The position numbers and the translations under genes were made by a program. This document shows, piece after piece, positions 33,837 to 50,790 of a DNA stretch of 50,790 bases (position 1 is its first letter; each line of letters starts with the position of its first letter). Source of the DNA: a virus. The stretch lies in IMG/VR virus record IMGVR_UViG_3300045988_139260, one strand, 5' to 3'. The notes below the pieces were generated by a model that was not told the DNA's origin, did not search any database, and was given only the letters and a program-made list of their open reading frames with translations.

Positions 33837-33855
33837 AGTGAGCCGGTATTCTACT
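33837..33855. repeat. 19-bp inverted repeat, right copy (partner 32274..32292)
   Basis: agtgagccggtattctact; see the left copy. Confidence 0.9.
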
Positions 33856-33880
33856 TATTTATGTAAAGCGAGGTAACAAT

Positions 33881-36898: not shown

Positions 36899-36909
36899 GA
36901 GGTAGAGAG

Positions 36910-37050: not shown

Positions 37051-37093
37051 AAAGACTTGTGACACATGGAACGTTGAAGACACGACATCGCTC

Positions 37094-37522: not shown

Positions 37523-37527
37523 TTAAC

Positions 37528-37725
37528 ATGAATGACGGGATGAATAAAATTGTGATCTGCAAACAGTGTGGCCAACCAGAATACTGGGGAGAAATGAGAT
37601 GGCTGTCAGGAAAGTGTACTTGCAGAAATTGTTACAAGGCAAACTGGCAAGATGAGAATCATTGCTTATATTCATGGGATGACTTAGACGGAAAACGGCC
37701 GACTCTGGAAGAAATGTACAGATAA
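37528..37725 (+). CDS. Hypothetical zinc-ribbon protein
   Basis: 65 aa; CKQCG...CTCRNC. Confidence 0.55.
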   Translation: MNDGMNKIVICKQCGQPEYWGEMRWLSGKCTCRNCYKANWQDENHCLYSWDDLDGKRPTLEEMYR

Positions 37726-37756
37726 TGAAACTTAAAACAAGGAGGAAAATACAAAG

Positions 37757-38740: not shown

Positions 38741-38988
38741 TGGGAGTTCAGATTGAGAAGAAGGAAATTATTACAGTGAGAGACGACTGTGGCCAGGTTG
38801 TAAGCCCGGGAGACTTCCTGATGATGAGAGTCGGGAAAGAAGATGTTGTATGCCGTTTCAAGGGCATCGAGGCGGGATATTTTAAGACGCAGCATCTGTA
38901 TGACGATGAAACCGTTAAATACAGAAACGCATCTATAGAGTCAATATATCACATTGACATCACAACTATTAATACCAAGGAGGATTAG
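38740..38988 (+). CDS. Hypothetical protein
   Basis: 82 aa; ATG overlaps the previous stop. Confidence 0.5.
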   Translation: MGVQIEKKEIITVRDDCGQVVSPGDFLMMRVGKEDVVCRFKGIEAGYFKTQHLYDDETVKYRNASIESIYHIDITTINTKED

Positions 38989-38993
38989 GAGAT

Positions 38994-39794
38994 ATGGGAA
39001 AAAATGAAGTAGCAGTAACAGAAGATAAGAAATTCAACCTGGTAACTATGGCAGAGTCAGGACTCAGCGAAGCTATCGCAGAGGAAATGGACGGCCTTGG
39101 ACCCATACCGTATGACAAGGTAAAGATACCATCGGGCGGAGGTCTTGCGTTTGAGATACCAGGAGAGACAGAGGATGACCCACAGACAGCTACAGAGCTT
39201 GTCGGTGTGATCTTATTCCACCATCCACTCAACGGTTACTGGGAAGAAGAGTTTAACGGAAGCAACGATAAGCCGAACTGCAGCAGTCTTGATGGCAAGA
39301 CCGGAGTTATATCAGAGACCGGCGAGATCAGGGACTGTGCCAACTGCGAATTTAATAAATTTGGCACAGCGAAAAATGGTTCCGGAAAAGCATGTAAGAA
39401 CATGCATCGCATCTACTTTTTACAGGAGGACAACCCTGTGCCGCTCATCGTTACTCTTCCGCCGACATCAATCAAGTCACTCAGAGATTACATCAGTAAG
39501 CGCATTCTTTTGAGAGGCATGAGATGTTACAGTGCAGTAACTAAGATTACCCTGAAAAAGGACAAGAATGCGGCGGGAATAGCATACAGCAAGGCAGTGT
39601 TCACGTTCGTAAAGAAGCTTGATGCAGACCAGGTAAGCGCGGCTGAGGAAATGGCAAAAGAAATGAAGAAGATACAGACATTCGTAGACATTGACGATTC
39701 GGACTACGATGAACCTGAAGAACCAAAAACCGACAACGATGGATTCATGGCTGTGCCTGATAATGCTATTAACGAGGAATTACCATTTAATTAA
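38994..39794 (+). CDS. Hypothetical Cys-cluster (putative zinc/DNA-binding) replication-module protein
   Basis: 266 aa. PNCSSLDG...CANCEFNKFG...GKACKN. Immediately upstream of the primase-helicase. Family not recognised. Confidence 0.55.
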   Translation: MGKNEVAVTEDKKFNLVTMAESGLSEAIAEEMDGLGPIPYDKVKIPSGGGLAFEIPGETEDDPQTATELVGVILFHHPLNGYWEEEFNGSNDKPNCSSLDGKTGVISETGEIRDCANCEFNKFGTAKNGSGKACKNMHRIYFLQEDNPVPLIVTLPPTSIKSLRDYISKRILLRGMRCYSAVTKITLKKDKNAAGIAYSKAVFTFVKKLDADQVSAAEEMAKEMKKIQTFVDIDDSDYDEPEEPKTDNDGFMAVPDNAINEELPFN

Positions 39795-39848
39795 AGGGGA
39801 TCGGGGCGTAAGCCCCCCCCCGATCAGTAGCGGATTGGAGGGCGCGAT

Positions 39849-42575
39849 ATGAATGCAGAACAACTAAACATAGATGATTTCGTTGATTATGCAGCAGAAT
39901 ATAAAAGTATCATAAAAAACGCCAACATCGCAGGCGATAAGCTTACAGGCCTGTGTCCATTTCACGATGACCGCTCTAATTCATTCTCGGTAGACTTGAA
40001 AACAGGCATGTGGCACTGTTTTGCCGAGGATGAGGGCGGTAATTTTATCACATTTTACAGTAAATATTATGGGCTGAACACCAAGGATGCATACAAAGAG
40101 ATACTAAACAAATACGGCCGGCTTGACAATCAGCCACAGCCCAAGCCAGAAAAACCAAAGCTGCAGCCATTCACCCTGCAAGAGTATTCATTTGCCAAGA
40201 AACTTCCTGAGGACTTTTTGAAAGAGGTCTGCAGAGTATCAACCGGCAAGGATAGAGACGGCACCAAATGGCTTAAAATGCCATATTTCAAAGAGAACGG
40301 CGAAGCGGAGATATTCAGAAAGCGTTACGGTAACAAGGAATTTAGATGGAGCTACGGAAGCAGCGGAAAGCTGTGCCTGTATGGAGAATGGCGCCTGCCA
40401 GAAATCAGGCAGAATGGCTATTGCATTCTTGTTGAGGGCGAGAGCGATACACAAACATTGTGGTACCTGCAGTTTGCAGCGCTTGGAACACCGGGAGCCG
40501 TTAACTTCAAGGATAAGATGGTGCCACAGCTTGAAGGGCTTAAGCTATATATACACGAGGAGCCAGACAAGGGCGGTAAGACTTTTTTTGAAAAGACGTG
40601 CCGGATTTTAAGTGAAAAGGATTTTTCGGGAGAGGTTTATTCCTTCACCTGCAAGCAGTTCGGAGTCAAGGATCCGTCAGAGCTTTACATGGCGCACGGC
40701 GCAGAAATTGCCACCAAGGAAATTAAGCAGGCTCTGCAGAATGCCAAGAGGATTGACCTTGACGCCATCAATGACATTATTCCTGAGGCAGCCAAGGGAG
40801 CTCCGGTCAATCTAAGACAGCCGGAAGGCTGGATATATTCAGACAAGGGCATAAGTCACATCAATGAAAAGACAATGATACCGTCACTTGTCTGCAGAAC
40901 ACCGATTATTTTGACACAGCGACTTAAGAGCATGGAGAGTGGCGAGGAAAAAATTGAAATAGCATTCAAGAGGGACAATGAATGGCACAAAGCTATTTTC
41001 CCACGGTCAACGATATTCACGAGCCGAAGCATCACAGCGCTCGCAGATCTTGGATGCACAGTAACAAGCGAAAATGCCAAGCAAATCGTAAGATTCCTCG
41101 CAGCTCTTGAGGCCGAGAACATTGATGTAATAAGCAAAGCTGATTCAGCATCGACATTCGGCTGGCAGAGTGGAGGACGATTCCTGCCCGGTCATGGCGA
41201 CGATATTGTACTTGACATCGAACCATCACTTAGAGGATGGGCGGCGGCATATCATGCCAACGGCACATTTGAAGCATGGAAAGACACGATGAGACCTCAT
41301 CGTGAGCGTGATAAGTTCAGGTTTATTTTAGCGGCAAGTTTTGCGGCGCCGTTGCTTAGAATTTTGTCACAGCGAATATTTTTTGTATATAACTGGGGCG
41401 GTTCTAAAGGCGGAAAGACCGCAGCACTCAAGGCTGCACTGTCAGCTTGGGGAGACCCGGAACGGCTCATGGTAAATTTCAACGCCACTCAGGTGGCACT
41501 TGAGCGCATGGCAGGGTTTTACAATGACCTGCCGATGGGAATTGATGAACGACAGCTCGCAGGCCAGAAGCAGGAAAGCCTTGAGAAAATAGTATATATG
41601 ATAGCATCAGGTACAGGCAGAGCCAGAGGAAGCAAGGGTGGCGGACTGCAGACCCTTAACACATGGCGAACTGTGGCGCTTGCAACAGGCGAAGAGCCAT
41701 TATCGACAGAGACTTCACAGACCGGTGTATCTACACGAGTCTTGGAGATATACGGCGGACCATTCGACAACGAAAAAGATGCCAGCCTGATGCACCAGCA
41801 GGCACCACTTAACTGTGGATGGGCGGGCCCGGAGTTCATCAATCAGATAATGAGAACCGATGAGCGCAGTATCAAAGAAGAATATGACCGCATGGTTGAG
41901 CAGGTATATGCACTTGCAAACGGCACCAGCGGAAGCCATATAGCCGGTATAAGTGCTGTAGCACTTGCCGATGCTATGATAGATACTTGGATTTTTAGAG
42001 ACCATCCTGAACCGGAGACCGGCACGAGAGCTCCGCTTATCATCGACAAGGAATCATGGGACAGGGCTGTGGCTATGGCTCAGGCAATTATCAGGGAGCA
42101 GTTGGCAGCAGGTGTGTCAGATGTTAACGAGAATGCAACACAGTACATAGTAGACTGGGTATTATCCAACAAGCAGTATTTTGGTGAGAAGGCTATAGGA
42201 ACATGCCTCGGAACCATCAGCAACGACCAGAACAAAGTATATATTTTTCCGTCGATTCTGAATAATGCACTGTCTAAAGCCGGATATAGCCCGAGGAAAA
42301 CTCTTAAATATCTTGCAGATAACAATATAATTACAGCAAAATCTAAGACGAACGGCGGAAAAACGTATAGCGTAACTAAATGGTTTAACAACAGGACATG
42401 CAGATTCGTAGAATTTGATTTAAGCCAATTCTCGAAACCAATAGATCCGCTCGATGAAGAAGTAGCAGCACTTGCAAGGGATTCAGGAACACAATCTAAC
42501 GAGGATGGATTTGTTTCGGCAGGCAATACGCCATTCGATGAAACAGACGGTCAACTGCCATTGCCATTCACGTAA
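39849..42575 (+). CDS. Bifunctional primase-helicase (zf-CHC2 + TOPRIM + P-loop NTPase)
   Basis: CPFHDDRSNSFSVDLKTGMWHCFAEDEGGN (DnaG-type zinc finger), ILVEGESDTQTLW (TOPRIM), NWGGSKGGKTAAL (Walker A), GIDERQ (Walker B). Confidence 0.9.
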   Translation: MNAEQLNIDDFVDYAAEYKSIIKNANIAGDKLTGLCPFHDDRSNSFSVDLKTGMWHCFAEDEGGNFITFYSKYYGLNTKDAYKEILNKYGRLDNQPQPKPEKPKLQPFTLQEYSFAKKLPEDFLKEVCRVSTGKDRDGTKWLKMPYFKENGEAEIFRKRYGNKEFRWSYGSSGKLCLYGEWRLPEIRQNGYCILVEGESDTQTLWYLQFAALGTPGAVNFKDKMVPQLEGLKLYIHEEPDKGGKTFFEKTCRILSEKDFSGEVYSFTCKQFGVKDPSELYMAHGAEIATKEIKQALQNAKRIDLDAINDIIPEAAKGAPVNLRQPEGWIYSDKGISHINEKTMIPSLVCRTPIILTQRLKSMESGEEKIEIAFKRDNEWHKAIFPRSTIFTSRSITALADLGCTVTSENAKQIVRFLAALEAENIDVISKADSASTFGWQSGGRFLPGHGDDIVLDIEPSLRGWAAAYHANGTFEAWKDTMRPHRERDKFRFILAASFAAPLLRILSQRIFFVYNWGGSKGGKTAALKAALSAWGDPERLMVNFNATQVALERMAGFYNDLPMGIDERQLAGQKQESLEKIVYMIASGTGRARGSKGGGLQTLNTWRTVALATGEEPLSTETSQTGVSTRVLEIYGGPFDNEKDASLMHQQAPLNCGWAGPEFINQIMRTDERSIKEEYDRMVEQVYALANGTSGSHIAGISAVALADAMIDTWIFRDHPEPETGTRAPLIIDKESWDRAVAMAQAIIREQLAAGVSDVNENATQYIVDWVLSNKQYFGEKAIGTCLGTISNDQNKVYIFPSILNNALSKAGYSPRKTLKYLADNNIITAKSKTNGGKTYSVTKWFNNRTCRFVEFDLSQFSKPIDPLDEEVAALARDSGTQSNEDGFVSAGNTPFDETDGQLPLPFT

Positions 42576-42594
42576 TCTAGGAATATAGTACGCT

Positions 42595-42897
42595 AAATTC
42601 CTAACACCTAAAAATTAGGTGTTAGGTTAGGTGTTAGGTTAGGTGTTAGGTCTGAAAGCCTTGATTTTAGCGAGGTTGAGCGCCTTTATATATATTCCTA
42701 ACACCTCTGACACCTATTTATAGGTTATTGTATGAGCTTGCGTGCAGTACTTTTTGGTGCACACAATAAAAAAATAGGTATGTATTTAAAAATTAGGTGT
42801 TAGGTGTTAGGAATGCCGATAAACGCTTAAAAATCAAGGGATTACACCTAACACCTATAAAAAACAATTAGGTGTTAGGAATATTAGGTGTTAGGGA
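42595..42897. repeat. Iteron-type origin of replication
   Basis: At least 9 copies of TTAGGTGTTAGG / CCTAACACCTAA in both orientations, including three tandem 12-mers at 42615-42650. AT-rich tttatatatatt at 42675-42686. Directly downstream of the primase-helicase. Confidence 0.75.
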
Positions 42898-42907
42898 GTG
42901 AGCGAAC

Positions 42908-43297
42908 ATGAAAAAACCGGATGAAGCCTTAAAACAAGCGGAGTTGACGCTTGAGAAATACAGGAAAAACAAAACACAGATACCGCCGGAAGATTTGGCA
43001 GGCAAATATCGCGTAGCATTTCAGAAACTAAAAGATGAGCTCGCAAGTGACTTAAAAGAGTACGTCAAGGCATATTGTTTCATCGGAATCAAGGTCAATG
43101 ATGCATCTGATCCGATTGTGGCCAAAATTCAGAAATCTTTTGATGATAACCAGATTGGAAAGAGAATTGGTCATGCAGCATTTATTAATTTTGACATTGA
43201 AGAGGTCAAAGAAATCGCAAGGCAGCAGTACCGAGAAAATCTTAGAATATACAGGAAGGAAAAGAACGATGATTGTAAAACAGATACCGCAGGATGA
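42908..43297 (+). CDS. Hypothetical protein
   Basis: 129 aa, after the origin, with a GGGAGTGAG RBS-like sequence. Confidence 0.55.
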   Translation: MKKPDEALKQAELTLEKYRKNKTQIPPEDLAGKYRVAFQKLKDELASDLKEYVKAYCFIGIKVNDASDPIVAKIQKSFDDNQIGKRIGHAAFINFDIEEVKEIARQQYRENLRIYRKEKNDDCKTDTAG

Positions 43298-43775
43298 AGC
43301 ACTAAGGCTTTTTTTAAAGGGAACTGATATCATGATAATGACCCCGGGCATAAGGGACAGTGGATGGAGTGAGATGATTCCGGACACATTGAGCTGTCTC
43401 TTAGAGGGCGTGATGTTTTTCAGAAGGGAGCCGGCAATGGAAACCGGCTTGGATATAAAGACGGATAGAACCTTGAGCGATATACCATCATTTAATCCAA
43501 GCCAAGGTCCAGATAACACAGGGATTGATTCAGATAATGAGGCTGAGAAAGAGGCTGACAATTCTGATGATCAGGAGCCAGAAGCTTCGGAATATGATAA
43601 CGAGAAAGACGCAAAACATAAAAAGAGAGTACAGGTTGACACCGGAAAGCTCATGGCACTAAGGAAAGCCGGCTGGACTGTGCCTATGATAGCAGATGAA
43701 TTAGGCATCGGAAAAAGCACCGTTTACAATTATGTTATGAAAATGCAGAAGGGAGCTGCCAATGAGAACGATTAA
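43269..43775 (+). CDS. Hypothetical protein with C-terminal HTH
   Basis: 168 aa from ATG 43269. C-terminus ALRKAGWTVPMIADELGIGKSTVYNYV is a Hin/resolvase-type HTH. The track ORF from 43098 is an overlap artefact. Confidence 0.6.
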   Translation: MIVKQIPQDEALRLFLKGTDIMIMTPGIRDSGWSEMIPDTLSCLLEGVMFFRREPAMETGLDIKTDRTLSDIPSFNPSQGPDNTGIDSDNEAEKEADNSDDQEPEASEYDNEKDAKHKKRVQVDTGKLMALRKAGWTVPMIADELGIGKSTVYNYVMKMQKGAANEND

Positions 43776-44244
43776 ATGCAGAGGCTGGGAGCCGGAACAT
43801 AAAACATGGATATATGGATCATATTTTGAACATTGCAATTGTGCAGTATGTTTTTCAAACGATGATCGCCCAGAATATCACGAACACGTAATATTGTTTG
43901 ATCAAATGACCGACTGGAGCCTTCCGAACCGCGCATTGCTTGCAGCAGTTGAGCCCGAGTCCATTGGAGAGTACGCCGGATGCACACTTGACGGCAAGGA
44001 AGTATATGAAGGCGACATACTGTGCCTGACAGATGAAACACCATATGAAGGCATTGTAAAGTTTGGCCCATATAATGAAGGCCCCGGGATATCGTATGAC
44101 ATGGGCTTTTATGTTGACTGGCAGGGAAAAGCCAAGGGGTGCAGGAAAGACTTAGGTTTTTGGATAAATCATAAAGACATCAAAATCGCAGGTAATATTT
44201 TTGAGAGGGGGTTGAACAATGAGGACAAGAGAACCGATAAGTGA
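43762..44244 (+). CDS. YopX family protein (second paralogue)
   Basis: IKCRGWEPEHKTWIYG...GKEVYEGDILC...IKIAGNIFERG. Confidence 0.75.
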   Translation: MRTIKCRGWEPEHKTWIYGSYFEHCNCAVCFSNDDRPEYHEHVILFDQMTDWSLPNRALLAAVEPESIGEYAGCTLDGKEVYEGDILCLTDETPYEGIVKFGPYNEGPGISYDMGFYVDWQGKAKGCRKDLGFWINHKDIKIAGNIFERGLNNEDKRTDK

Positions 44245-44449
44245 TACTGAGTACGCAGAATGCCAGAAATGTGTCCGGAAATGGGCTTTCAAAAAGATGA
44301 TGAAGCTTGAAAAAAAACTAAAACGATATGCAAAAATATACTTTGGCCAGGATATGTTAATCATTTACAAGAATCCGGAAGCCTTTAAGGAAGCAATTAA
44401 GAGCGGAAAGGTGAGTGTTGAAATCAATGAAAAAGCTAGACCGCTTTGA
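44219..44449 (+). CDS. Hypothetical protein
   Basis: 76 aa. Confidence 0.5.
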   Translation: MRTREPISDTEYAECQKCVRKWAFKKMMKLEKKLKRYAKIYFGQDMLIIYKNPEAFKEAIKSGKVSVEINEKARPL

Positions 44450-44861
44450 TAGCAGAGCTGAGGCGCTTAATTACATCCGCGAAAATGTGATAGGCATAAG
44501 AACGCCGGGTGATGCAGAACGCTACCTGATAGACAACATTCCCAAGGAGAGCTATTATCAGAAGAAAATCTTAGATTACATCAAGGCTAATTATCCCAGA
44601 GCTATTGCATGGAAGGAAGCAGCAGGGTGTTACAGCAGGCAGGGCATACCAGATGTGTCCGCCTGCATCAATGGCAGATATTTTGGATTCGAGGTCAAGA
44701 GACCATATTTCGGGAAACTGTCAGCGATGCAGAAGCAGACGATTGAGCGAATCAGGAAAGCCGGTGGCGTAGCCGGGGTGTGTATATTCCCAGAGGATGC
44801 AGAAGAATTAATACAGGAGGGCTTGTATGATGAACAGAAAACAAAGAAGGGCAGAGGCTAA
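44427..44861 (+). CDS. VRR-NUC domain nuclease
   Basis: QGIPDVSACINGRYFGFEVKRP...LSAMQKQTIERIRKAGGVAGV is the VRR-NUC pattern (PD-(D/E)xK). Start at ATG 44427 or GTG 44415. Confidence 0.8.
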   Translation: MKKLDRFDSRAEALNYIRENVIGIRTPGDAERYLIDNIPKESYYQKKILDYIKANYPRAIAWKEAAGCYSRQGIPDVSACINGRYFGFEVKRPYFGKLSAMQKQTIERIRKAGGVAGVCIFPEDAEELIQEGLYDEQKTKKGRG

Positions 44862-45108
44862 AGAGCGTGGCATTGTGGCATACAGGCCACCAGCACCCAA
44901 GCCGCAGGAGGTCATAAGCGAGACAGTACCGGATTTTTCAAGGGTACCACTTGCTACCATGTGTCAGAGCATCCAGATGCTTATTAATGAATTACACCGC
45001 AGGGGCGTCAAGATTTACGATTTTGATAATAAGACCAAACATGTACAGCAAATTCAGATTATAGGCAAGCGTGTATATTTTTTGGCGGAGGAAGATCATG
45101 AAAAGTAA
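44827..45108 (+). CDS. Hypothetical protein
   Basis: 93 aa. Confidence 0.5.
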   Translation: MMNRKQRRAEAKERGIVAYRPPAPKPQEVISETVPDFSRVPLATMCQSIQMLINELHRRGVKIYDFDNKTKHVQQIQIIGKRVYFLAEEDHEK

Positions 45109-45610
45109 TAATGTCAAGAAAAGACTATCGAGTGATGCAGCTATGCTTGATAGATACCTGAGCACATATAATCGTTGCAAGAACCGCAAGAAGGCACTTG
45201 AGGACCGCAGGCAGTCACTGCTCGCAGAGTTTGAAAGCCCGCTTAAATTCAAGGGCATGAATGGGATGCCAAAGGGCGGTGGCACGAGTGTTGGGTGCGC
45301 TGCACTGTCGTATGAGCTTGATGATATCAATACCAGGATCGATGAGAAAATCAAAGAGCTTGAAAGAACATATGTCGAGATCAACAATACGATAGATTTT
45401 TTAGCAGATAATTCCACAGAGAGAGCGATCCTTGAGTACAAATACATCGACAGCATGAGCTGGAACACCATCTGCGAAAAAGAAAATCTTACAAGAACCC
45501 CGGCCACGCAGTACTGGCGCAAAGGACTTTATGAGCTTTTAGAGTATGCCAAAGTTCAACAGATTGTTAAAGATTACGCCAAAAAGATTGACTGCGAGAT
45601 GGAAGGCTAA
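45098..45610 (+). CDS. Late-gene transcriptional activator, ArpU/RinA/sigma region-4-like
   Basis: 170 aa from ATG 45098 (GGAGGAAG RBS). C-terminal ERAILEYKYIDSMSWNTICEKENLTRTPATQYWRKGL resembles sigma-70 region 4 / ArpU-RinA activators. It is the second-to-last gene before the late-promoter-like element. Confidence 0.65.
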   Translation: MKSNNVKKRLSSDAAMLDRYLSTYNRCKNRKKALEDRRQSLLAEFESPLKFKGMNGMPKGGGTSVGCAALSYELDDINTRIDEKIKELERTYVEINNTIDFLADNSTERAILEYKYIDSMSWNTICEKENLTRTPATQYWRKGLYELLEYAKVQQIVKDYAKKIDCEMEG

Positions 45611-45651
45611 TATAATTTTTTTAAACAACTAAAGCAAAGGAGACAACTATT

Positions 45652-46053
45652 ATGATGAGCGAAAATTTTATGGAGATATGCGGAGAGCACGAGCAGCAGC
45701 AACAGATGTTTCACCTGGTTCAGATGTTATCGGAGGCGGGCTACCCATTCTATTTTAATTTTTTAGAAGACCTGGCTCCGGATCCGTTCAGGCAGGACGG
45801 CGGAGACCCTGAGACTGACATCGACTGGGATGAATATAATTTTTTTGTTGAGCTTGAGAGAGGAGCCGGAGCAGAGTACCCACTTTTAAGCGTGAGCATT
45901 GATGATGATGGACTTCTTAACCTTGTTGATATGAGGGCATCGGCTGAAAATAATCTTACAGGAGACGCTGCAGAAGATGCAGCCATTTGGCATAAGGGAA
46001 TAACCTCAGAAGAGGCAATGGATTTCATAGAAAAATTTTTTAACGAAAGATAG
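45652..46053 (+). CDS. Hypothetical acidic protein
   Basis: 133 aa. Its stop lies inside the 39-bp element copy B. Confidence 0.55.
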   Translation: MMSENFMEICGEHEQQQQMFHLVQMLSEAGYPFYFNFLEDLAPDPFRQDGGDPETDIDWDEYNFFVELERGAGAEYPLLSVSIDDDGLLNLVDMRASAENNLTGDAAEDAAIWHKGITSEEAMDFIEKFFNER

Positions 46054-46084
46054 CACAAAAGAGCACACGCGCGTGTGATATTAT
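46046..46084 (+). promoter_or_regulatory. Late-promoter/operator element, copy B (37/39 identical to 152..190)
   Basis: aaagatagcacaaaagagcacacgcgcgtgtgatattat. Contains the perfect 14-bp palindrome cacacgcgcgtgtg and the extended -10 TGaTATTAT. Confidence 0.55.
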
Positions 46085-46152
46085 AATATCAACCGTTAGG
46101 CGCGGGAATCAGACATTTTTTGTACTCCTAAATTAAAATTTTTTAACAGCAA

Positions 46153-46184
46153 AAGAGGCTGTGTCGGTTTCGACATAGCCTCTT
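46153..46184. terminator. Bidirectional rho-independent terminator
   Basis: aagaggctgtgtcg-gttt-cgacatagcctctt (14-bp stem with one G-T), with A-run upstream and T-run downstream. Confidence 0.8.
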
Positions 46185-46191
46185 TTGTTAT

Positions 46192-46416
46192 TCAGTCTAA
46201 AATTTTTTCAATCGGCACATGCAGCACTTCGGCCATGCTTCGGACCTTGCCAACAGATGCATTGTTGATGTTGACTCTGCCCTGTTCGTAGTTCTCAATG
46301 GCCCGGTAGCTGACGCCGGATTTTTTTGATAGTTCTTCCCGGGATATCCCGAGTTCCTGCCGCACCTTCGTCAGCGCGGTCAGATTTTCTTTTTTTACAT
46401 ACATGATATCTATCAT
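46192..46416 (-). CDS. XRE-family HTH regulator
   Basis: 74 aa. LTKVRQELGISREELSKKSGVSYRAIENYEQGR. True start may be the internal ATG (MYVKKE). Confidence 0.8.
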   Translation of the reverse strand: MIDIMYVKKENLTALTKVRQELGISREELSKKSGVSYRAIENYEQGRVNINNASVGKVRSMAEVLHVPIEKILD

Positions 46417-46441
46417 CCTCCCTAAATAAATTTTTTAACCA

Positions 46442-46469
46442 GCGCCGGAACCGTCCCGGCGCTTTTATT
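46442..46469 (+). terminator. Plus-oriented rho-independent terminator inside the minus-strand island
   Basis: gcgccgg-aaccgtc-ccggcgc followed by ttttatt on the + strand. On the minus strand the T-run is missing. Confidence 0.55.
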
Positions 46470-46501
46470 GTACACCTGTAAGCGTATTATTGCCAGCATT
46501 T

Positions 46502-46951
46502 TTACACACGTATCGCACCTGCTGCTGCCTGCAGGATTTTTTTATCAAAGCCGAATGAATCATATCCGGAAGCTATCACGTTGTAGTAGTAATAGCTTGG
46601 CTTTGTAGGCTTGCCCTGATTCATCAGGTAAATCATGCCGGTAACGGTTGAGCCGTCATCCATCAGGACCTCGATATCTTCTTTTCGGTAGAGGTGTGGA
46701 TAGCCTTCATATCGGTCAAGATTTTTTTCGTCGGCGGCTGAGATCGTGAAGAGCCCAACCGGGACATCTGCGCTCCCGCCCGGCAGGACGGTTGCAACAC
46801 CATTGCCGCGGGCATTTCCCCAGAATGTCAGGGAATAATTTTTTAAAACACCACTGCCGAATATTTCGGCATCCGGACAGCGGAAGCGCATCTGCTCAAG
46901 ATGTAAGTTTGAGCCATAAGCGACATAAAGTTTTTTGTTAGATTTTCTCAT
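46502..46951 (-). CDS. Gamma-glutamyl cyclotransferase (GGCT/AIG2-like)
   Basis: 149 aa from ATG 46951 (AGGAGG RBS). YVAYGSNLHLEQMRFRCP ... DRYEGYPHLY are the YGSN and catalytic Glu motifs of GGCT/AIG2. Confidence 0.8.
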   Translation of the reverse strand: MRKSNKKLYVAYGSNLHLEQMRFRCPDAEIFGSGVLKNYSLTFWGNARGNGVATVLPGGSADVPVGLFTISAADEKNLDRYEGYPHLYRKEDIEVLMDDGSTVTGMIYLMNQGKPTKPSYYYYNVIASGYDSFGFDKKILQAAAGAIRV

Positions 46952-47051
46952 AATGAGTACCTCCTTAGATATAATTTTCGATGTATTTTTTAAACCTGCC
47001 ATCATCAGCGCCGGGAGGTCAGCTCCGGCGGACGCCCGAAGGCGTTTCGGC

Positions 47052-47444
47052 TTAATATTCACACTGTGTCAGCATTGGGTAAGGATCCGGATAATTTCTT
47101 GTCGCAAGTTTTACGCAGCGTTTCAAGATATAATCTGCTTCGGATTTTGAAAGCCCGATCAGGTTTCCGTCTTCATCAGATTCGGCGGCAACGATAAAGA
47201 GATTTCCGACAAGCTGTGCCTGGCCTAAATTATTTATCGCGGAAATTTTTGGAGCCGCATTAAAAAGTCCTTCATCATCACAGATAATCGTGAATTTTTT
47301 TCGACCAATCCTGCGCTGGACTATATCAATGCAAGTGCAGTTCAGGACTTCATAATACTTTTCGAGATCATCCGCAATTTCGATTGCATCCACTTTTTTA
47401 TTTTCCACGTCAACCAGTACACCGCGTAATTTTTTGTTTGCCAT
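47052..47444 (-). CDS. DUF3846-like protein
   Basis: 130 aa from ATG 47444 (AAGGGGG RBS). LRGVLVDVENKKVDAIEI...LNCTCIDIV...IICDDEGLFN...GNLFIV..SDEDGNLIGL fits my recollection of DUF3846. Confidence 0.6.
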   Translation of the reverse strand: MANKKLRGVLVDVENKKVDAIEIADDLEKYYEVLNCTCIDIVQRRIGRKKFTIICDDEGLFNAAPKISAINNLGQAQLVGNLFIVAAESDEDGNLIGLSKSEADYILKRCVKLATRNYPDPYPMLTQCEY

Positions 47445-47461
47445 AATGAGCACCCCCTTAT

Positions 47462-47836
47462 TTAATTTTGAGCCATAATGTTGTTAAACTGATAAGAACA
47501 GCCGGCATATTTGGCATCTATCACCGCATCGTCCAACACGTTTTCAGGCGTTCCGCCGTCGTCCATTGTTACGGCCATAATATCACCGACCGTGATATCA
47601 TCAGAATCTGCATAAAATTCATAGAGCAGACCTGAAGCGGTGGAAATTGTAACAAGGTCATTCGCCGGATCAATGGCGGTTACTACACCGGCCCAAGGGT
47701 AGGTGCTGTGCCTTGCTTCATCAGCCTGAGCCTCGGCAGCTTCCGGAACTTCGGCAGCTTTGGCAGCGGCGCCGCATCCAATCGCTGAGCTGATAACAAC
47801 TGTGGCCATCATGGCCAATAACATTCTTTTCTTCAT
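47462..47836 (-). CDS. Lipoprotein, hypothetical
   Basis: 124 aa. Signal peptide with lipobox (VISSAIGC). GGAGG RBS. Confidence 0.7.
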   Translation of the reverse strand: MKKRMLLAMMATVVISSAIGCGAAAKAAEVPEAAEAQADEARHSTYPWAGVVTAIDPANDLVTISTASGLLYEFYADSDDITVGDIMAVTMDDGGTPENVLDDAVIDAKYAGCSYQFNNIMAQN

Positions 47837-47880
47837 AGTGATTACCTCCGCATGTTTTATATTCCGGATGTTTCCGGGAA

Positions 47881-47921
47881 TCCCGGCCGGGGGAATCGAA
47901 CCCCCGGCGCAACCGTTCCGG
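47881..47921 (-). other. tRNA T-arm-like minihelix (not a full tRNA)
   Basis: Minus strand: cccgg-aacggttgcg-ccgggGGTTCGATTCCcccgg-ccggg. A 7-bp stem with a canonical T-loop is enclosed by a 5-bp outer stem that abuts it like an acceptor stem. Lies between two genes. Confidence 0.45.
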
Positions 47922-47924
47922 GCT

Positions 47925-48488
47925 TTAATACCAAGATGACTGGAACTCAGGCTCGCCGTTCCATGCAGTCAATGAGATGCAGGAGCTTATTTTTACGTGC
48001 CAGCCGCCGGTGCGCTTCTCGTAAGAATCCTGAGCAACCATCTTTACAACCGGCTCGCCAATCCGATTATCGTAATCCGGAACGACGTAGCCACTCATCG
48101 AGCTATTTGTTTCAGTTTGGATATGGCCAAGTTCCACGATCTCAATTTTGCAAGAGCTGATAATTTTAGTAACCAGATAGAACTCGACATTAGTCTGCTC
48201 ATATCCCCAGGAATCAGTGAGCACGTCGCCAGCCTTGATTCCATATTTAGATTTTTTCTCAGATGCAGCAGCGACTGCGGTGCTTGCAACCTGTGCCGGG
48301 CTTGCATCCCCGGAGAGCTTCTCGGCCAATGCCAGGCGCTCGGTAGTACGTTTTGCATACCATAATTTTTTGACGCTGTGCCAGCGGAAGCCGGCGGCCT
48401 TCATTTCATTTCTTACATCCTGAGCTGGCTTGCTTTCAAAGCTAAGCTCGATTCCATTAAATTCTTTGTTGATTGCCATTGTACACAT
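47925..48488 (-). CDS. Hypothetical protein with N-terminal module seen in conjugative-element polyvalent proteins (tentative)
   Basis: 187 aa with GGAGG RBS. FNGIELSFESKPAQDVRNEMKAAGFRWHSVKKLWYAKRT resembles a short domain I recall from ICE/plasmid proteins. C-terminal half unrecognised. Confidence 0.6.
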   Translation of the reverse strand: MCTMAINKEFNGIELSFESKPAQDVRNEMKAAGFRWHSVKKLWYAKRTTERLALAEKLSGDASPAQVASTAVAAASEKKSKYGIKAGDVLTDSWGYEQTNVEFYLVTKIISSCKIEIVELGHIQTETNSSMSGYVVPDYDNRIGEPVVKMVAQDSYEKRTGGWHVKISSCISLTAWNGEPEFQSSWY

Positions 48489-48572
48489 ACTTTATACCTC
48501 CGTTTTATGCTACGCTTAAAAGCGTTTCTTGTTTGTTGAGCTCATATTAGCTCTGCCGAAAAAACTTGTCAA
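48489..48572 (-). promoter_or_regulatory. Promoter plus conserved leader, module 2 (paralogue of 49718..49812)
   Basis: Minus strand: aaaaagtgcTTGACA-17 nt-TAATAT, then gagctcaacaaacaagaaacgcttttaagcgt (hairpin acgctt/aagcgt), then GGAGG. Confidence 0.65.
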
Positions 48573-48608
48573 GCACTTTTTTCAAAATTTTTGATTTTGT
48601 TTTTCCAA

Positions 48609-48663
48609 GCCGCCCTGCTGGGGATCGAACCCGGATATTATGCGGCGCCAGCCGCCGGGGCGG
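48609..48663 (-). other. tRNA-like element with GGGTTCGATCCC T-loop motif (not a full tRNA)
   Basis: Minus strand: ccgccc-cg-gcggc tggc gccgc-ataatatcc-GGGTTCGATCCC-cagca-gggcgg. The outer 6-bp stem encloses two hairpins. Confidence 0.35.
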
Positions 48664-48670
48664 TACCCGG

Positions 48671-49717
48671 TTAATTATTAACCGGATCTAAGAAATATTT
48701 ATCCTTATTCTGACCATGACGCCAAGCGGCGTCGCCGGTCAGATTCTTAATCATATGCGCATGAGGATTTTTGAAGGCGTCGCCAATCCAGCCCATACCA
48801 ATAAGCCATGTGCGCATAGCAAATTTTTCATTGCCAGCCTGCATTATCGGATTTTTGGTTGTGGCTATGCGGGAGCTAAATAAAGCCTTGGCGTTCATGC
48901 TCAGGACTAAGAGCACAAAACTGCGGATCTTGCCGGCATGCAATGTTGCATCAAAGGCACGGATCTCGATCGTGTTGCAACCCTGGCCACGAGTAGAAAA
49001 GTAGCGGTGCAGGTTCAGCAGATGATATCTGCTGCCGTCGTAATGATTAAGTCGGCAGCTTTCAGGACGGCCGTCGCTGAGCTCCTCATACCACACACGC
49101 TCGATGTCCTCTATCGTCTTGCACTTTTGCACGCGGTTAATGAACTGTGTCGGGGTTCCGTGATCGTAGCCGGTACGGCGGTTATTGATCGGGACACACC
49201 ATGCACAGACACGGCTGTCGGCCACACCTAAGGCCTTGTATAACATCTCTTCTTGAGCGTATACAAGGTTTATGAAGTTCTTTAGTGTCTGAGCTGTATG
49301 CTCACGACTTCCTACATGTACATGTATACCGCAGCCATAGCGGGCACCGGTACGAGCCCCGCCCTGCTTTAGAAGCCTAACCAGTTGCTGCAGTGTGTCC
49401 ATGTCTTCAAGGGTTAAAGGCGGGGTGTTGAGCTCGCATGAGTAGTCGCCACGGCTTGCTGCTGTACGGCCGTTGGAGTCAACCGCATTGATCGAGCAAT
49501 CAGAAACGAACTGCCATACACGGCCGCCGACAAATTCAGTAACGGTGTACTTGTGATAAGCCCCGCCGACGTATTGAACAGAGCCGCCAACTAGGCTGGC
49601 GCAGAGGGCTGCTGCCTTTTCCCTTGTGATTCCGGTCATCTCAATCTCGACGCCGTAAGTCATGTTATTGATCATTCCGCGAAGATGCTCGCGCTTTTCA
49701 GTATTTGTCATTGCCAT
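48671..49717 (-). CDS. Amidoligase-family enzyme (GS-like COOH-NH2 ligase, Amidoligase_2-type)
   Basis: 348 aa with AGGAGG RBS. YGVEIEMTGITREKAA, ELNTPPL, GIHVHVG, NTIEIRAFDATLH fit the amidoligase pattern as I recall it. Confidence 0.75.
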   Translation of the reverse strand: MAMTNTEKREHLRGMINNMTYGVEIEMTGITREKAAALCASLVGGSVQYVGGAYHKYTVTEFVGGRVWQFVSDCSINAVDSNGRTAASRGDYSCELNTPPLTLEDMDTLQQLVRLLKQGGARTGARYGCGIHVHVGSREHTAQTLKNFINLVYAQEEMLYKALGVADSRVCAWCVPINNRRTGYDHGTPTQFINRVQKCKTIEDIERVWYEELSDGRPESCRLNHYDGSRYHLLNLHRYFSTRGQGCNTIEIRAFDATLHAGKIRSFVLLVLSMNAKALFSSRIATTKNPIMQAGNEKFAMRTWLIGMGWIGDAFKNPHAHMIKNLTGDAAWRHGQNKDKYFLDPVNN

Positions 49718-49812
49718 TTTGTGTTCCTCCTATGTTTCAATGTTTGTTGATACGTTTACAAACGTTTCTTGCTTGCAAGCTAACGATAGCTCTGCAAGTT
49801 GGGCTGTGTCAA
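49718..49812 (-). promoter_or_regulatory. Promoter plus conserved leader, module 1 (paralogue of 48489..48572)
   Basis: Minus strand: aaaaagtgcTTGACA-18 nt-TATCGT, then tagcttgcaagcaagaaacgtttgtaaacgt (hairpin acgttt/aaacgt), then AGGAGG. Confidence 0.6.
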
Positions 49813-49830: not shown

Positions 49831-50691
49831 TTTTCCCGCTGTGTCCGGAAGCTTGATTTTACAAGGGTTTCAGGCTTTAAAAAATTTGTCTTAAACGTTT
49901 TGAATGCCTGAGCTATCAGAGCCGCCGCGGCCGTGATCCACGCCGCGCACGCGCCCGGAGGGCTATATATACGCGCGCCTGTCTGCCTGATGGAAGATAT
50001 ACGACAGAACTACAAGGCAGGCTATAGCCGCAGTCCTTAGATGCGCACCCGCGCGCCTGTGGCTTACACATGCACAGGACCAGGAGAAGAGAAACACACG
50101 GACACGCGCACGCGCACCAATGGAAGAGACGCTGTAGCAGGGCGGCAGGGTATATACAGGAGCGTGGGTGTGTACAATATGCGCCCGCGAATATATAAAG
50201 GCGCTTTAGGGGCTTTAATCTGCGCCTATCACGTGTTCGCGCATGCGCGCCAGATGGAAGATATACACTAAGGCAGCAGGACAGCCGGACTATAGAGCCA
50301 CAGTCAGCAGGGTGGCAGGGCACGCCGGGGCTACGTAGCGGCATAGCGGGGCGGCAGGCTATAGAGCCATAAGGCAGCAGGGCACCTGTGTCCGGCGCAT
50401 ATCAAGGCTATCGGATCCGGCTTGGATGCAGTCGGCTATATACAGCAGGGCAGCAGGGCACCTGTGTCCGACACTAAGAGAGAGCCAGCAAGGCGGCTGT
50501 GTCCGGCACTAAGACAAGCAGCAGAGCAGGCAGGGCGGAGCGGCAGACCTGTGTCCGGTATACTAAGAGGCATTAAAGCAGGGCGGGACACCTGCGTCCG
50601 ATACATGGTGGCAGGTAGCAAGGCGCATAGTCCATAGAAGCAAGAGGCACGGTTTGAGTGATCGCTGTGTCCATAGAAGAAACAGGGGTCA
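49831..50691. repeat. G+C-rich non-coding region with dispersed direct repeats (CTGTGTCCGR boxes and others)
   Basis: No credible ORF. Boxes at 49839, 50386, 50462, 50497, 50549, 50592 and 50665, all in the same orientation. gatggaagatatac occurs twice, ggctatag(a)gcc three times. Many alternating CG tracts. Confidence 0.85.
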
Positions 50692-50790
50692 AAATCGACC
50701 CCTTCAGAGGCCCCAAGGTACTACTGTGGACGCTCAGAATGCGGGGCGGGGAAAGGCGCATTATTTAAGCGGAAATGATGCAAAAAAAAT
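50692..50790. repeat. Terminal overlap copy 2 (identical to 1..99)
   Basis: See copy 1. Confidence 0.95.

What the first reader, a model, noticed from the sequence alone, without database searches (positions are those of the whole stretch)
49831..50691. 0.86-kb G+C-rich, ORF-free repeat landscape with seven co-oriented CTGTGTCCGR boxes next to the packaging genes
Seen: there is no ORF with an RBS or plausible composition between the amidoligase promoter and the window end. The 142-aa minus ORF 49916..50344 is Cys/Arg-rich nonsense. Hand counts of two 60-nt lines (50101 and 50341) give 62-65% G+C, against roughly 30-50% in lines counted elsewhere. The left half (49921-50280) is full of alternating CG tracts (cacgccgcgcacgcgc, cacacggacacgcgcacgcgcac, gcgcatgcgcgc). 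It also carries the repeats gatggaagatatac (49989 and 50253) and ggctatag(a)gcc (three times). The right half (50340-50690) is purine-rich on the + strand. It carries CTGTGTCCGR in one orientation at 50386, 50462, 50497, 50549, 50592 (ctgCgtccga) and 50665 (ctgtgtccAT). The box is usually preceded by gcagggcac and followed by yactaaga. A seventh copy is at 49839. Spacings are 35-76 bp, so this is neither a tandem array nor a CRISPR. The half-motifs cacacgc and cacctgtg also form the core of the 39-bp late-promoter element (152-190 and 46046-46084). Inference, three options: (a) a multi-site terminase recognition region for the Nu1-like TerS; (b) a loading or titration array for the ParB-domain protein or the late activator; (c) a large structured or protein-sponging non-coding RNA. 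Sequence alone cannot decide between them.
Basis: partly seen in the sequence, partly recalled or inferred. Interest (0 to 1): 0.75.

Follow-up and report, generated by a model that had tools for sequence, protein, structure and literature searches.

The report
Polar word array beside phage cos
This 0.86-kb stretch is the non-coding right end of a gut-bacterium phage chromosome, next to its cohesive-end (cos) cutting site; it concentrates a short DNA word that sits on one strand only and that the phage, but not its host, also scatters through all its genes, which points to an unidentified direction-reading DNA enzyme, not to an RNA or a terminase-binding array.

Summary
Window 49831-50691 is ORF-free and is the most G+C-rich (57% vs 44.5%) and most T-poor 860 nt of a circularly assembled 50,691-bp temperate phage of Agathobacter rectalis ([Eubacterium] rectale).

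New findings:
1. The region abuts a lambda-like cos site. Two independent contig ends define a 12-nt cohesive end, GGGCGGGGAAAG (window 53-64 = 50744-50755).
2. The box is one case of a genome-wide word, CTGTGBC(C). CTGTGTCC occurs 16 times on the + strand and 0 on the - strand. It is the most over-represented 8-mer against synonymous-codon shuffles (10 vs 0.3 outside the array) and occurs in genes of both orientations.
3. The word is rare in 64 kb of host DNA (4:18).
4. 13 relatives keep a 0.45-0.97-kb T-poor array with unrelated repeat units, but 73 forward boxes against 1 reverse.
5. Sister phages with 77%-identical TerS/TerL and the same cos lack the boxes, as do ten relatives that carry the ParB-MTase gene.
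6. The true replication origin is at 42576-42907.
7. There is no Rfam hit and no excess RNA folding.

Best reading (about 0.35): recognition sites for a phage-encoded, strand-specific DNA-processing protein, by analogy with the nick-associated motifs of phages tf and T5, concentrated at the last-packaged end. The reader protein is unknown.

The parts
49783..49812 (-). Leftward promoter of the amidoligase operon (TTGACA-18-TATCGT). The box core CTGTGTC (49804-49810, + strand) overlaps its -35.
   Evidence: Consensus scan, 10 of 12 matches. A box lies in the -35 or spacer of the equivalent promoter in L013, L098 and L100.
49834..49850 (-). Hairpin followed by a T-run on the minus strand.
49858..49885 (+). 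Weak rightward promoter-like site (TTTACA-16-AAAAAT). It is conserved in some relatives only.
   Evidence: The equivalent is visible in L007, L013, L021 and L029, but not clearly in L053 or L056.
49916..50340 (+). Left half of the array. It holds alternating CG/CA tracts, TATA islands, ATGGAAGA motifs (49990, 50120, 50254) and one CTGTGGC box (50057).
   Evidence: ATGGAAGAAAC-type motifs recur in the arrays of all family members.
50373..50448 (+). 76-nt repeat unit, including box 50386. It is deleted in a near-identical phage (L178).
50386..50672 (+). Six co-oriented boxes: CTGTGTCC at 50386, 50462, 50497, 50549 and 50665, and CTGCGTCC at 50592. They are embedded in purine-rich, T-poor filler.
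   Evidence: All core copies are unchanged in the 94%-identical relative L007.
50665..50683 (+). CTGTGTCCATAGAAGAAAC, the last box plus a conserved tail. The 19-mer is identical in L007, L013, L021 and L029, and its CCATAGAAGAAA core recurs in L046, L053, L054, L060 and L099. On the minus strand the tail is the T-tract of the next hairpin.
50684..50703 (-). Hairpin GGGGTC...GACCCC with a T-rich tail on the minus strand (terminator-like). Relatives have a hairpin of different sequence at the same place.
50716..50724 (+). AGGTACTAC (= window 25-33). Its GGTACTAC core is invariant in the family and in all six out-group phages aligned. It lies 19-27 nt left of the top-strand cos cut and is a candidate cosQ-like or left cosN flank.
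50744..50755 (+). cosN: the 12-nt cohesive-end sequence GGGCGGGGAAAG (= window 53-64).
   Evidence: Contig L050 (98%-identical phage) starts at window position 53. Contig L098 (51.6 kb, another family member) ends at the position equivalent to 64. TerL belongs to the lambda gpA family.
104..116 (+). CATTTCGTTACGC, conserved on the TerS side of cosN in all relatives. Candidate cosB (TerS site).
152..247 (+). Late-promoter element (152-190), followed within about 50-100 nt by a hairpin plus T-run (about 213-247). A second copy lies at 46046-46084 with its hairpin at about 46150-46188.
201..49800 (+). Genome-wide copies of the same word outside the array: 10 CTGTGTCC and 53 CTGTGBC on +, against 0 and 19 on -.

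Best explanation
Shown. The region is the non-coding right-end arm of a lambda-like cos chromosome, the last 70-850 bp before the 12-nt cohesive end. It lies between the cos end and the first leftward promoter. It is a fast-evolving, slippage-prone, T-poor repeat landscape. Its family-wide conserved content is chiefly a cluster of co-oriented copies of an asymmetric DNA word, (G)CTGTGBC(C)NR, together with an ATRGAAGAAAC-type motif. The same word is spread over the whole genome at about one per kb, on the + strand only. It is maintained at synonymous sites in genes of either orientation, and it is not a host word.

Inferred. The boxes are DNA-level recognition sites read by a phage-encoded protein that tells the two strands apart and so acts in a fixed direction relative to cos. 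The closest precedent is the site- and strand-specific nick motifs of T5, phiKMV-like and tf/LUZ24-like phages (tf: TACT/RTGMC). I therefore commit to this reading: a phage-encoded strand-specific nicking or processing enzyme marks the + strand at CTGTGBC sites. The array gives the highest site density at the end that is packaged last. By the lambda precedent (my recollection) that end is ejected first, ahead of the leftward amidoligase gene block. The enzyme is not identified. It may be encoded in the amidoligase block, which always accompanies the word.
For: Position at cos:
- Contig ends place cos at window 53 and 64.
- TerL is of the gpA type.

A real, single-strand, over-represented word:
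- CTGTGTCC is 16:0 against 1.44 expected on both strands together.
- Outside the array, codon-shuffle nulls give 10 observed vs 0.30 for CTGTGTCC, 38 vs 7.6 for CTGTGYC, and reverse complements at expectation.
- It is the top 8-mer in an unbiased scan, Poisson 3e-12.
- It is enriched 2.4- to 15-fold in six of seven genome segments, including both minus-strand blocks.

Phage-specific:
- 64.5 kb of A. rectalis and related chromosome gives 4 forward to 18 reverse, against 61:20 in the 50.7-kb phage.

Conserved as a kind of element:
- 13 arrays hold 73 forward boxes and 1 reverse, against about 0.1 expected per array, although the repeat units are unalignable.
- Relatives show the same genome-wide polarity, for example L053 TGTGCC 26:0 and L098 18:0.

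Precedent:
- tf has 14 nicks, all in the top strand, in TACT/RTGMC (PMC3517423).
- WACTRTGAC is enriched on one strand in 61 Pseudomonas phages, unevenly along their genomes, with function unknown (PMC11780129).
- The core CTGTG-N-C is shared. The cos-proximal copy GGTACTACTGTGCC in L013, L056, L060, L099 and L100 contains tf's exact variant TACTGTGCC.
- tf also encodes Amidoligase_2 and an AIG2/GGACT-like protein. These are the families of the block that accompanies the word: 9 of 9 loci with the block are polar and 0 of 18 without it are.
Against: - No physical evidence of nicks can be obtained with these tools, and no nuclease was recognised among the family-specific proteins.
- The variable position differs from tf (B here, M in tf). 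CTGTGAC is 1:5 in the window.
- 61 sites per genome is far more than the 4-14 nicks of the known cases.
- No terminal array has been described in nicked phages.
- The link to amidoligase does not generalise. phiEco32, with a similar gene cluster, has no polar CTGTG word. IMG/VR phages whose amidoligase is less than 45% identical lack the word.
- A box inside the leftward promoter fits a regulator as well as a nickase.
- The T-poverty of every array is not explained.
Confidence: 0.35

Rival explanations
1. Operator, titration or looping array for a DNA-binding protein encoded in the adjacent leftward block (the 74-aa HTH protein, the 187-aa protein or the DUF3846 protein). The protein would control the amidoligase promoter; the genome-wide copies would be secondary sites.
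For: A box overlaps the -35 or spacer of the leftward promoter in the window, L013, L098 and L100. The boxes co-occur strictly with the block. Box copy number is tolerant to change.
Against: A regulator does not explain about 53 extra copies selected at synonymous sites inside genes. It also does not explain why all of them share one orientation whatever the gene direction.
Confidence: 0.2
2. Packaging signal read by the translocating terminase: a multi-copy cosQ-like approach or termination signal, or the first reader's multi-site TerS region.
For: The array lies directly upstream of cosN, oriented as a motor arriving from the left would meet it. Box density rises toward the right end. In most family members a box sits 8-12 nt from the cos G-run.
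Against: L052, L057, L058 and L059 have TerS and TerL 73-77% identical (L059 TerS 66%); L052, the one whose cos region was read, has the same cos core, and none has the boxes or the polarity. L054 (polar) and the window itself lack an intact box at the cos-proximal position. The TerS-side conserved element lies on the other side of cosN.
Confidence: 0.13
3. Polar replication signals. Either fork-barrier (Ter-like) sites that enforce one replication direction relative to cos, or preferred priming sites for the CHC2-zinc-ribbon/DUF927 primase-helicase on the lagging-strand template.
For: Polarity is uniform, with no switch at the mapped origin at 42.6-42.9 kb. About one site per kb is close to Okazaki-fragment spacing (my recollection). 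The word contains GTGTC, which I recall as a T7 primase site. All box-bearing relatives examined keep this primase.
Against: L065 and L066 carry a 62%-identical full-length primase-helicase and have no polar word at all. A terminal cluster, and a copy inside a promoter, are not expected for priming sites.
Confidence: 0.08
4. Chi-like end protection. The boxes would attenuate the host AddAB/RecBCD-type nuclease entering at the right cos end.
For: As I recall the lambda Chi-cos rule, the orientation is the one that would work: the word is on the strand that ends 3' at the right end, and the cluster is the first thing met from that end.
Against: The word is not over-represented in host DNA. There are 0 forward copies in about 34 kb sampled from A. 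rectalis contigs (L092, L080b, L085) and 4:18 in 64.5 kb of A. rectalis and relatives. Host over-representation is the statistical hallmark of every known Chi.
Confidence: 0.06
5. Non-coding RNA: a U-poor sponge or a structured RNA transcribed rightward from the weak promoter at 49858 or from the second late promoter at 46046.
For: There is a promoter-like site. A second late promoter points toward the region. No + strand terminator lies inside the array, whereas several lie on the - strand.
Against: No Rfam family matches. Folding is no better than for shuffles. The sequence is not conserved between relatives, and the rightward promoter-like site is not seen in all of them. The box also sits in the antisense of minus-strand genes, which argues for a DNA-level role.
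Confidence: 0.07
6. Functionless spacer. Slippage-generated filler between cos and the first promoter, with the boxes merely being copies of a word that is selected elsewhere in the genome.
For: The arrays consist of lineage-specific cryptic tandem units and show indel polymorphism.
Against: 73:1 box orientation in 13 otherwise unalignable arrays. All seven 8-nt box cores (CTGYGTCC) are unchanged in the relative L007, whose array differs at 6.3% of positions overall; I estimate P about 0.03. Every array shares the same T-poor composition.
Confidence: 0.06

Closest known systems
Nick-associated, strand-specific motifs of phage genomes: T5/BF23, phiKMV-like phages, and tf/LUZ24-like phages (TACT/RTGMC, WACTRTGAC)
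   Same: The word is confined to one strand whatever the gene orientation. It is many-fold over-represented in one phage family, conserved across relatives with little nucleotide identity, and unevenly spread along the genome. The core CTGTG-N-C is shared with tf. tf also carries Amidoligase_2 and AIG2-like genes.
   Different: - Nicks are not shown here.
- There are 61 (7-mer) or 16 (8-mer) sites here, against 4-14 in the known cases.
- The variable base is B here and M in tf.
- This phage is temperate, uses cos, and infects a gut Firmicute; T5, tf and the phiKMV-like phages infect Gram-negative hosts and have terminal direct repeats.
- No terminal array is reported for any of the known cases.
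Lambda cos region (cosQ-cosN-cosB) with gpA/Nu1 terminase
   Same: TerL is of the gpA family. The cohesive end is 12 nt, G-rich and begins GGGCGG (lambda: GGGCGGCGACCT, from memory). cos lies upstream of the terminase genes. A conserved element lies on the TerS side and an invariant short element (AGGTACTAC) lies about 20 nt on the other side.
   Different: A 0.5-0.9-kb repeat array occupies the cosQ side. A ParB-MTase gene and a late promoter lie between cos and TerS. The boxes are dispensable in sister phages with nearly the same terminase.
Chi and KOPS/SRS: polar, over-represented chromosomal words
   Same: Over-representation, strand polarity, independence from gene orientation, and rising density toward a processing site.
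   Different: Those are host words that temperate phages imitate. This word is absent from the host sample and specific to one phage family.
Short-repeat arrays next to genome ends: T7 SRL/SRR beside the terminal repeat, and adenovirus packaging A-repeats (both from memory)
   Same: Co-oriented, redundant short repeats with irregular spacing, placed between a genome end and the first promoters.
   Different: No sequence similarity, different packaging systems, and those repeats are not genome-wide words.
Iteron origins and type Ib/II centromere arrays (SaPI ori, R1 parC)
   Same: Co-oriented short repeats, one of which overlaps a promoter.
   Different: The phage's iteron origin is elsewhere (42576-42907, TTAGGTGTTAGG, next to the initiator-helicase gene). 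Spacing here is irregular, and the word also occurs genome-wide.

Membership tests
Lambda-type cos site | gpA-family large terminase encoded next to the site | tested here: met
   PF05876 and PF20454, E 1e-79 and 1e-73.
Lambda-type cos site | Defined cohesive-end sequence at the physical chromosome ends | tested here: met
   Contig L050 starts at window 53. Contig L098 ends at the equivalent of 64. The 12-nt overlap is GGGCGGGGAAAG, conserved with 1-2 changes in most relatives and more diverged in a few. This is inferred from assemblies, not from virion end sequencing.
Lambda-type cos site | The box array is itself a terminase recognition element (cosB- or cosQ-like) | tested here: not met
   L052, L057, L058 and L059 have TerS/TerL 66-77% identical (L052 also the same cos core) and no boxes.
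Nick-associated strand-specific phage motif (tf/T5 type) | Motif present on one strand only | tested here: met
   CTGTGTCC 16:0, ACTGTGBC 18:2, CTGTGBC 61:20 with the reverse count at null expectation.
Nick-associated strand-specific phage motif (tf/T5 type) | Enrichment over chance, shared by a family of related phages | tested here: met
   10 vs 0.3 in the codon-shuffle test. It is the top 8-mer. More than 13 relatives show it.
Nick-associated strand-specific phage motif (tf/T5 type) | Sequence identity with a known nick consensus (TACTRTGMC) | tested here: inconclusive
   The core CTGTG-N-C is shared. Only 2 full matches exist in the window. The variable base is B, not M; CTGTGAC is 1:5.
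Nick-associated strand-specific phage motif (tf/T5 type) | Ligatable single-strand breaks at the motif in virion DNA | not testable with these tools
   Needs virion DNA: native nanopore sequencing, or alkaline gels with and without ligase.
Chi site | Over-represented and strand-skewed in the host chromosome | tested here: not met
   4 forward to 18 reverse in 64.5 kb of A. rectalis and related chromosome; CTGTGTCC 0:2.
Large structured phage ncRNA (ROOL, GOLLD and similar) | Match to an Rfam covariance model, or excess folding stability | tested here: not met
   No hit at gathering threshold or at E <= 10. z = +0.2 and +1.1. Covariation could not be tested because the arrays do not align.
ParB-parS loading array | ParB with an HTH DNA-binding domain, palindromic parS sites, and co-occurrence of sites and protein | tested here: not met
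   The protein has only ParB_N plus N6_N4_Mtase. The boxes are asymmetric. Ten ParB-MTase-bearing relatives lack them.
Iteron replication origin | Iterons with an AT-rich core next to the initiator gene | tested here: not met
   These features are found at 42576-42907 with a different iteron. The array lies 7 kb from the initiator gene.
CRISPR or tandem-repeat array | Regular repeat-spacer periodicity | tested here: not met
   Box spacings are 35, 43, 52, 73 and 76 nt. TRF finds only 15-19-nt micro-arrays.

The most novel reading that the evidence does not exclude
A temperate gut phage family carries its own genome-wide orientation code. The code is a phage-specific, one-strand word absent from the host and written into synonymous sites of every gene block. 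It culminates in a terminal array at the cos end and is read by a so-far unrecognised phage enzyme, possibly encoded with the amidoligase/GGACT block. That gene pair also accompanies the similar CTGTG-type nick motif of Pseudomonas phage tf. If so, the enigmatic localized nicks of T5- and tf-like phages would belong to a much wider, mechanistically linked system that reaches cos phages of Firmicutes.
Probability: 0.3. Interest if true: 0.85.

Novelty: new variant of a known kind. Interest (0 to 1): 0.68.

Why it matters
One-strand-only, over-represented words in phage genomes are known from a few lytic phages of Gram-negative bacteria. There they mark site-specific nicks whose function has stayed unknown since the 1960s.

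This work finds the same statistical signature in an abundant temperate cos phage of Agathobacter rectalis. It adds a terminal array of the word beside a mapped cos site and strict co-occurrence with one gene block. That gives the old question a new and tractable system with clear predictions: strand-specific coverage drops at 61 named sites, and a short list of candidate genes.

It also supplies practical annotation for this phage family: the cos sequence, the replication origin, the attachment site and the host.

Tried and rejected
- BLASTN of the region against INPHARED found nothing.
- A literature search for the word itself returned only primer sequences.
- The single metagenome pattern scan returned only 2 loci.
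- Rfam, at gathering and at permissive thresholds, returned nothing relevant.
- Coding was rejected: no Pfam hit, population indels, and gene calls that differ between copies.
- Replication origin was rejected: the real origin is at 42.6-42.9 kb.
- Host Chi or KOPS was my first idea after seeing the polarity. It was rejected after fetching host DNA through integrase and PcrA look-ups.
- ACGCAG looked like a polar word in the L062-64 clade, but it is mostly a codon effect: 31 observed vs 16 expected.
- The link between amidoligase and the CTGTG word does not generalise: phiEco32 and distant amidoligase-bearing phages are negative.
- Positional conservation of body sites was not informative. The one site shared by all relatives also occurs in out-groups, so it probably reflects a TerL amino-acid motif; the other sites turn over.
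- PHROGs, NCBIfam and PDB sequence searches of the block proteins gave no nuclease or DNA-binding assignment beyond the 74-aa HTH protein.
- GATC clusters, reminiscent of P1 pac, are strong in some arrays but absent in the window.
Full report
WHAT THE WINDOW IS. The window is a circular assembly: its last 99 nt repeat its first 99 nt, giving a unique length of 50,691 bp. It is a temperate tailed phage.
- The large terminase belongs to the lambda gpA family, and a small terminase (phrog_57) precedes it.
- It has a large serine integrase.
- It has a CHC2-zinc-ribbon/DUF927 primase-helicase.
- A ParB_N domain fused to an adenine methyltransferase is encoded directly upstream of TerS.
- A leftward gene block lies at 46.2-49.7 kb: amidoligase, a 187-aa protein, a 124-aa protein, DUF3846, GGACT and an HTH protein.

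The finding is the intergenic DNA between that block and the ParB-MTase gene. Because the assembly is circular, it runs from 49718 across the junction to 196.

OBSERVATION CHECK. Two more copies of the core were missed: CTGTGTC at 49804 and CTGTGGC at 50057.
- The two hand-counted lines have 61.7% and 65.0% G+C. The region has 57% against 44.5% for the genome.
- It is the highest-GC and lowest-T 860-nt window of the genome.
- It is not a tandem array.
- The 142-aa minus-strand ORF has no family match.
- Ten phage copies that are 99.8-100% identical were fetched. One lacks a 76-nt unit (50373-50448, one box lost) and another has a 24-nt duplication. Gene callers predict different ORFs in different copies. 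The DNA is non-coding and prone to slippage.

THE REGION ABUTS COS.
- A contig of a 98%-identical phage (L050) begins exactly at window position 53 (GGGCGGGGAAAGG...).
- A 51.6-kb contig of a more distant family member (L098) ends exactly at ...ATGCGGGGCGAGGAAAG, the equivalent of position 64.
- The 12-nt overlap, GGGCGGGGAAAG, is what fill-in of a 12-nt cohesive end would produce. It resembles lambda's GGGCGGCGACCT (my recollection).
- GGTACTAC, 20-27 nt to the left, is invariant (as AGGTACTAC in nearly all) even in the six out-group phages aligned. CATTTCGTTACGC, about 40 nt to the right on the TerS side, is also conserved.

The array is therefore the last 70-850 bp of the mature chromosome's right end. 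By the lambda precedent (established knowledge, recalled) this end is packaged last and ejected first. It is followed inward by a good sigma-A-type promoter (TTGACA-18-TATCGT) that drives the leftward block.

THE ARRAY IS A CONSERVED KIND OF ELEMENT, NOT A CONSERVED SEQUENCE. Relatives came from IMG/VR, GTDB genomes and metagenomes.
- All 13 family members examined have 0.45-0.97 kb of non-coding DNA between the amidoligase gene and cos (length includes the leftward promoter).
- The + strand is always T-poor (11-19% T).
- The repeat units are lineage-specific: GCAGCAGGGCAC in the window, GGCGGCAGGGTAGAC in L021, GGAGCAGAGCAGGAGACAAGC in L013, GGAAAGCAG in L098, GAACGACC in L056.
- They hold 73 CTGTGBC boxes in the forward orientation and 1 in reverse, with about 0.1 expected per array.
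- In the 94%-identical relative L007 all seven 8-nt box cores (CTGYGTCC) are unchanged while their flanks differ.
- ATRGAAGAAAC motifs recur. In some lineages GGATCRG words are strongly enriched, but not in the window.

THE BOX IS A GENOME-WIDE, ONE-STRAND WORD.
- CTGTGTCC occurs 16 times on + and never on -. Shuffles give 1.4 for both strands together.
- Ten copies lie outside the array in unrelated contexts, two of them inside minus-strand genes.
- I permuted synonymous codons within 63 ORF-called genes. Outside the array, CTGTGTCC is 10 observed vs 0.30 expected (maximum 3 in 500 shuffles). CTGTGYC is 38 vs 7.6 (sd 2.1). The reverse complements sit at expectation: 0 vs 0.6 and 14 vs 15.
- An unbiased scan of all words puts CTGTGTCC first among 8-mers (Poisson 3e-12). 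CTGTGGC, CTGTGTC and CTGTGCC are first among 7-mers, so the word is CTGTGBC.
- The ninth base is a purine in 52 of 61 sites.
- Enrichment is 2.4- to 15-fold in six of seven genome segments, including both minus-strand blocks. Only the 3.6-kb RT/lysis segment has none.
- Density is highest at the right end: 16 of 61 sites lie in the last 5.7 kb.
- Relatives show the same polarity: L053 TGTGCC 26:0, L054 23:4, L098 CTGTGBC 18:0, L100 22:3.

This is selection at the DNA level for a signal that distinguishes the two strands.

IT IS NOT A HOST WORD. My first idea was a Chi- or KOPS-like host word, because the orientation relative to cos is the one that works for Chi in lambda.
- The phage carries a 77-aa fragment of a rumA-like gene next to its integrase.
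- Integrated copies were found in that gene, next to pcrA.
- The PcrA there is 94-99% identical to proteins of the very abundant species [Eubacterium] rectale / Agathobacter rectalis.
- In 64.5 kb of chromosomal DNA from this species and relatives, oriented like the prophage, CTGTGBC is 4 forward to 18 reverse and CTGTGTCC is 0:2. The 50.7-kb phage has 61:20 and 16:0.

This rules out the classical Chi/KOPS reading, within the limits of a 64-kb sample.

WHO READS IT? Comparative genomics excludes the obvious candidates.
- Terminase. L052 has a 77%-identical TerS, an identical VSVRRIQQLTQ stretch that I take to be the DNA-recognition helix, a 77%-identical TerL, the same cos core and the same late promoter. 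It has a shorter T-poor array without boxes and no polar word. L057-L059 behave alike.
- ParB-MTase. Ten relatives with a ParB-MTase (56-64% identical) lack the word.
- Primase-helicase. L065 and L066 have a full-length primase-helicase that is 62% identical and no polar word.
- Amidoligase block. The word co-occurs only with this block: 9 of 9 loci with it and 0 of 18 without it. Three more divergent members whose amidoligase is 50-53% identical also have the word.
- Limits of that link. Phages whose amidoligase is less than 45% identical do not have the word. None of the block proteins is recognisable as a nuclease or, apart from a 74-aa HTH protein, as a DNA binder.
- Promoter overlap. One box overlaps the -35 or spacer of the leftward promoter in four lineages.

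WHAT IT IS NOT.
- Not an origin. Ten TTAGGTGTTAGG iterons around an AT-rich core sit at 42576-42907, right after the initiator-helicase gene. Box polarity does not switch there.
- Not a recognisable RNA. There is no Rfam hit, folding is no better than for shuffles on either strand, and the arrays cannot be aligned for covariation.
- A rightward transcript is not excluded. There is a weak promoter at 49858. A second late promoter at 46046 points this way. Five of the six predicted hairpin-plus-T-run signals in the scanned 1.2 kb, including all those in or bordering the array, are on the minus strand.

PRECEDENT.
- Phage tf has 14 ligatable nicks, all in the top strand, within TACT/RTGMC (PMC3517423).
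- Phage Rembedalsseter has 13 nicks in WACTRTGAC. That motif is enriched on one strand in 61 Pseudomonas phages (9.0 vs 0.7) and is unevenly distributed. Its function is unknown (PMC11780129).
- My k-mer scan recovers the tf motif as its top word.
- The statistical signature is the same as here, and the core CTGTG-N-C is shared. The cos-proximal copy GGTACTACTGTGCC in five relatives (L013, L056, L060, L099, L100) contains tf's exact variant TACTGTGCC.
- tf also encodes Amidoligase_2 and an AIG2/GGACT-like protein.
- Against a general link: the two amidoligases do not match in a BLAST comparison; phiEco32, with a similar cluster, has no polar CTGTG word; and the variable base differs between the two motifs.

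MECHANISM.
- Shown: position at cos, DNA-level selection, strand specificity, phage specificity, conservation across the family, and the exclusions above.
- Inferred, confidence about 0.35: the boxes are sites of a phage-encoded strand-specific nicking or processing enzyme, concentrated at the last-packaged end.
- Rivals: a regulator array for the leftward operon (0.2), a terminase approach signal (0.13), polar replication signals (0.08), an RNA (0.07), Chi-like protection (0.06), and functionless filler (0.06).
- Unexplained under every reading: why every array is T-poor on the + strand.

LIMITS. No complete host genome or complete relative genomes could be read. Gene calls for the shuffles are ORF-based. 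The cos ends are inferred from assembly termini. Statements about lambda, P2, T7 and adenovirus are from memory.

Noticed in passing
window 42576-42907: A textbook iteron origin. About ten copies of TTAGGTGTTAGG, in direct and inverted orientation, surround an AT-rich core immediately downstream of the CHC2/DUF927/Cch-HTH primase-helicase gene (39849-42575).
   Followed up: partly
window 24418-24536 (+) and 24557-25705 (+): An Rfam RT-4 RNA (116 bits, E 1e-20) lies directly upstream of a reverse-transcriptase gene in the tail-fibre/lysis region. It may be a retroelement such as a DGR. This 3.6-kb segment is the only one without the polar word.
   Followed up: no
window 46990-47052 (-): A type II hammerhead ribozyme (39.8 bits, above the gathering score) lies at the junction of the DUF3846 and GGACT genes inside the leftward operon. 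It would cut the polycistronic mRNA.
   Followed up: no
window 152-247 and 46046-46188: There are two copies of the late-promoter element, each followed within about 50-100 nt by a strong hairpin plus T-run. This looks like antitermination-controlled units. The second copy points into the antisense of the leftward block and toward the array.
   Followed up: partly
window 30507-32190; loci L080, L081, L084, L092: attP lies inside a 77-aa fragment of a rumA-like U5-methyltransferase gene next to the serine integrase. Integrated copies sit next to pcrA. The host is identified as [Eubacterium] rectale / Agathobacter rectalis.
   Followed up: yes
window 8014, 13870, 21095, 35616, 38088, 38787, 47800: The G variant of the word often extends to CTGTGGCC(AAC): 7:0, with TGGCCAAC 6:0. 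This may be a sub-class of site or a second word.
   Followed up: no
L178 and L183 vs window 50373-50448 and 49931: The array varies in length within one phage population: a 76-nt deletion between direct repeats and a 24-nt duplication, in copies that are otherwise 99.8% identical.
   Followed up: yes
L184 (phage tf, HE611333) 7593-13587: The nicked-genome phage tf encodes two COOH-NH2 ligases (one of them Amidoligase_2), GAT-II, an ATP-grasp enzyme and an AIG2-like protein. In the paper library searched, only the tf genome paper itself contains the words amidoligase, nicks and phage together.
   Followed up: partly
L051, L053, L099 arrays: GATC-containing words (GGATCRG, GATCAGATCAG) are 4- to 7-fold enriched in some relatives' arrays (14, 9 and 12 copies vs 2-3 expected). 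This is reminiscent of the methylation-sensitive P1 pac site. It is not seen in the window (3 vs 3.5).
   Followed up: partly
ERZ2119212 NODE_82 (locus L078/L176): A 101,460-nt public contig is almost exactly two phage genome lengths (2 x 50,691 = 101,382). It is probably an assembled dimer or concatemer, not a prophage with host flanks.
   Followed up: no
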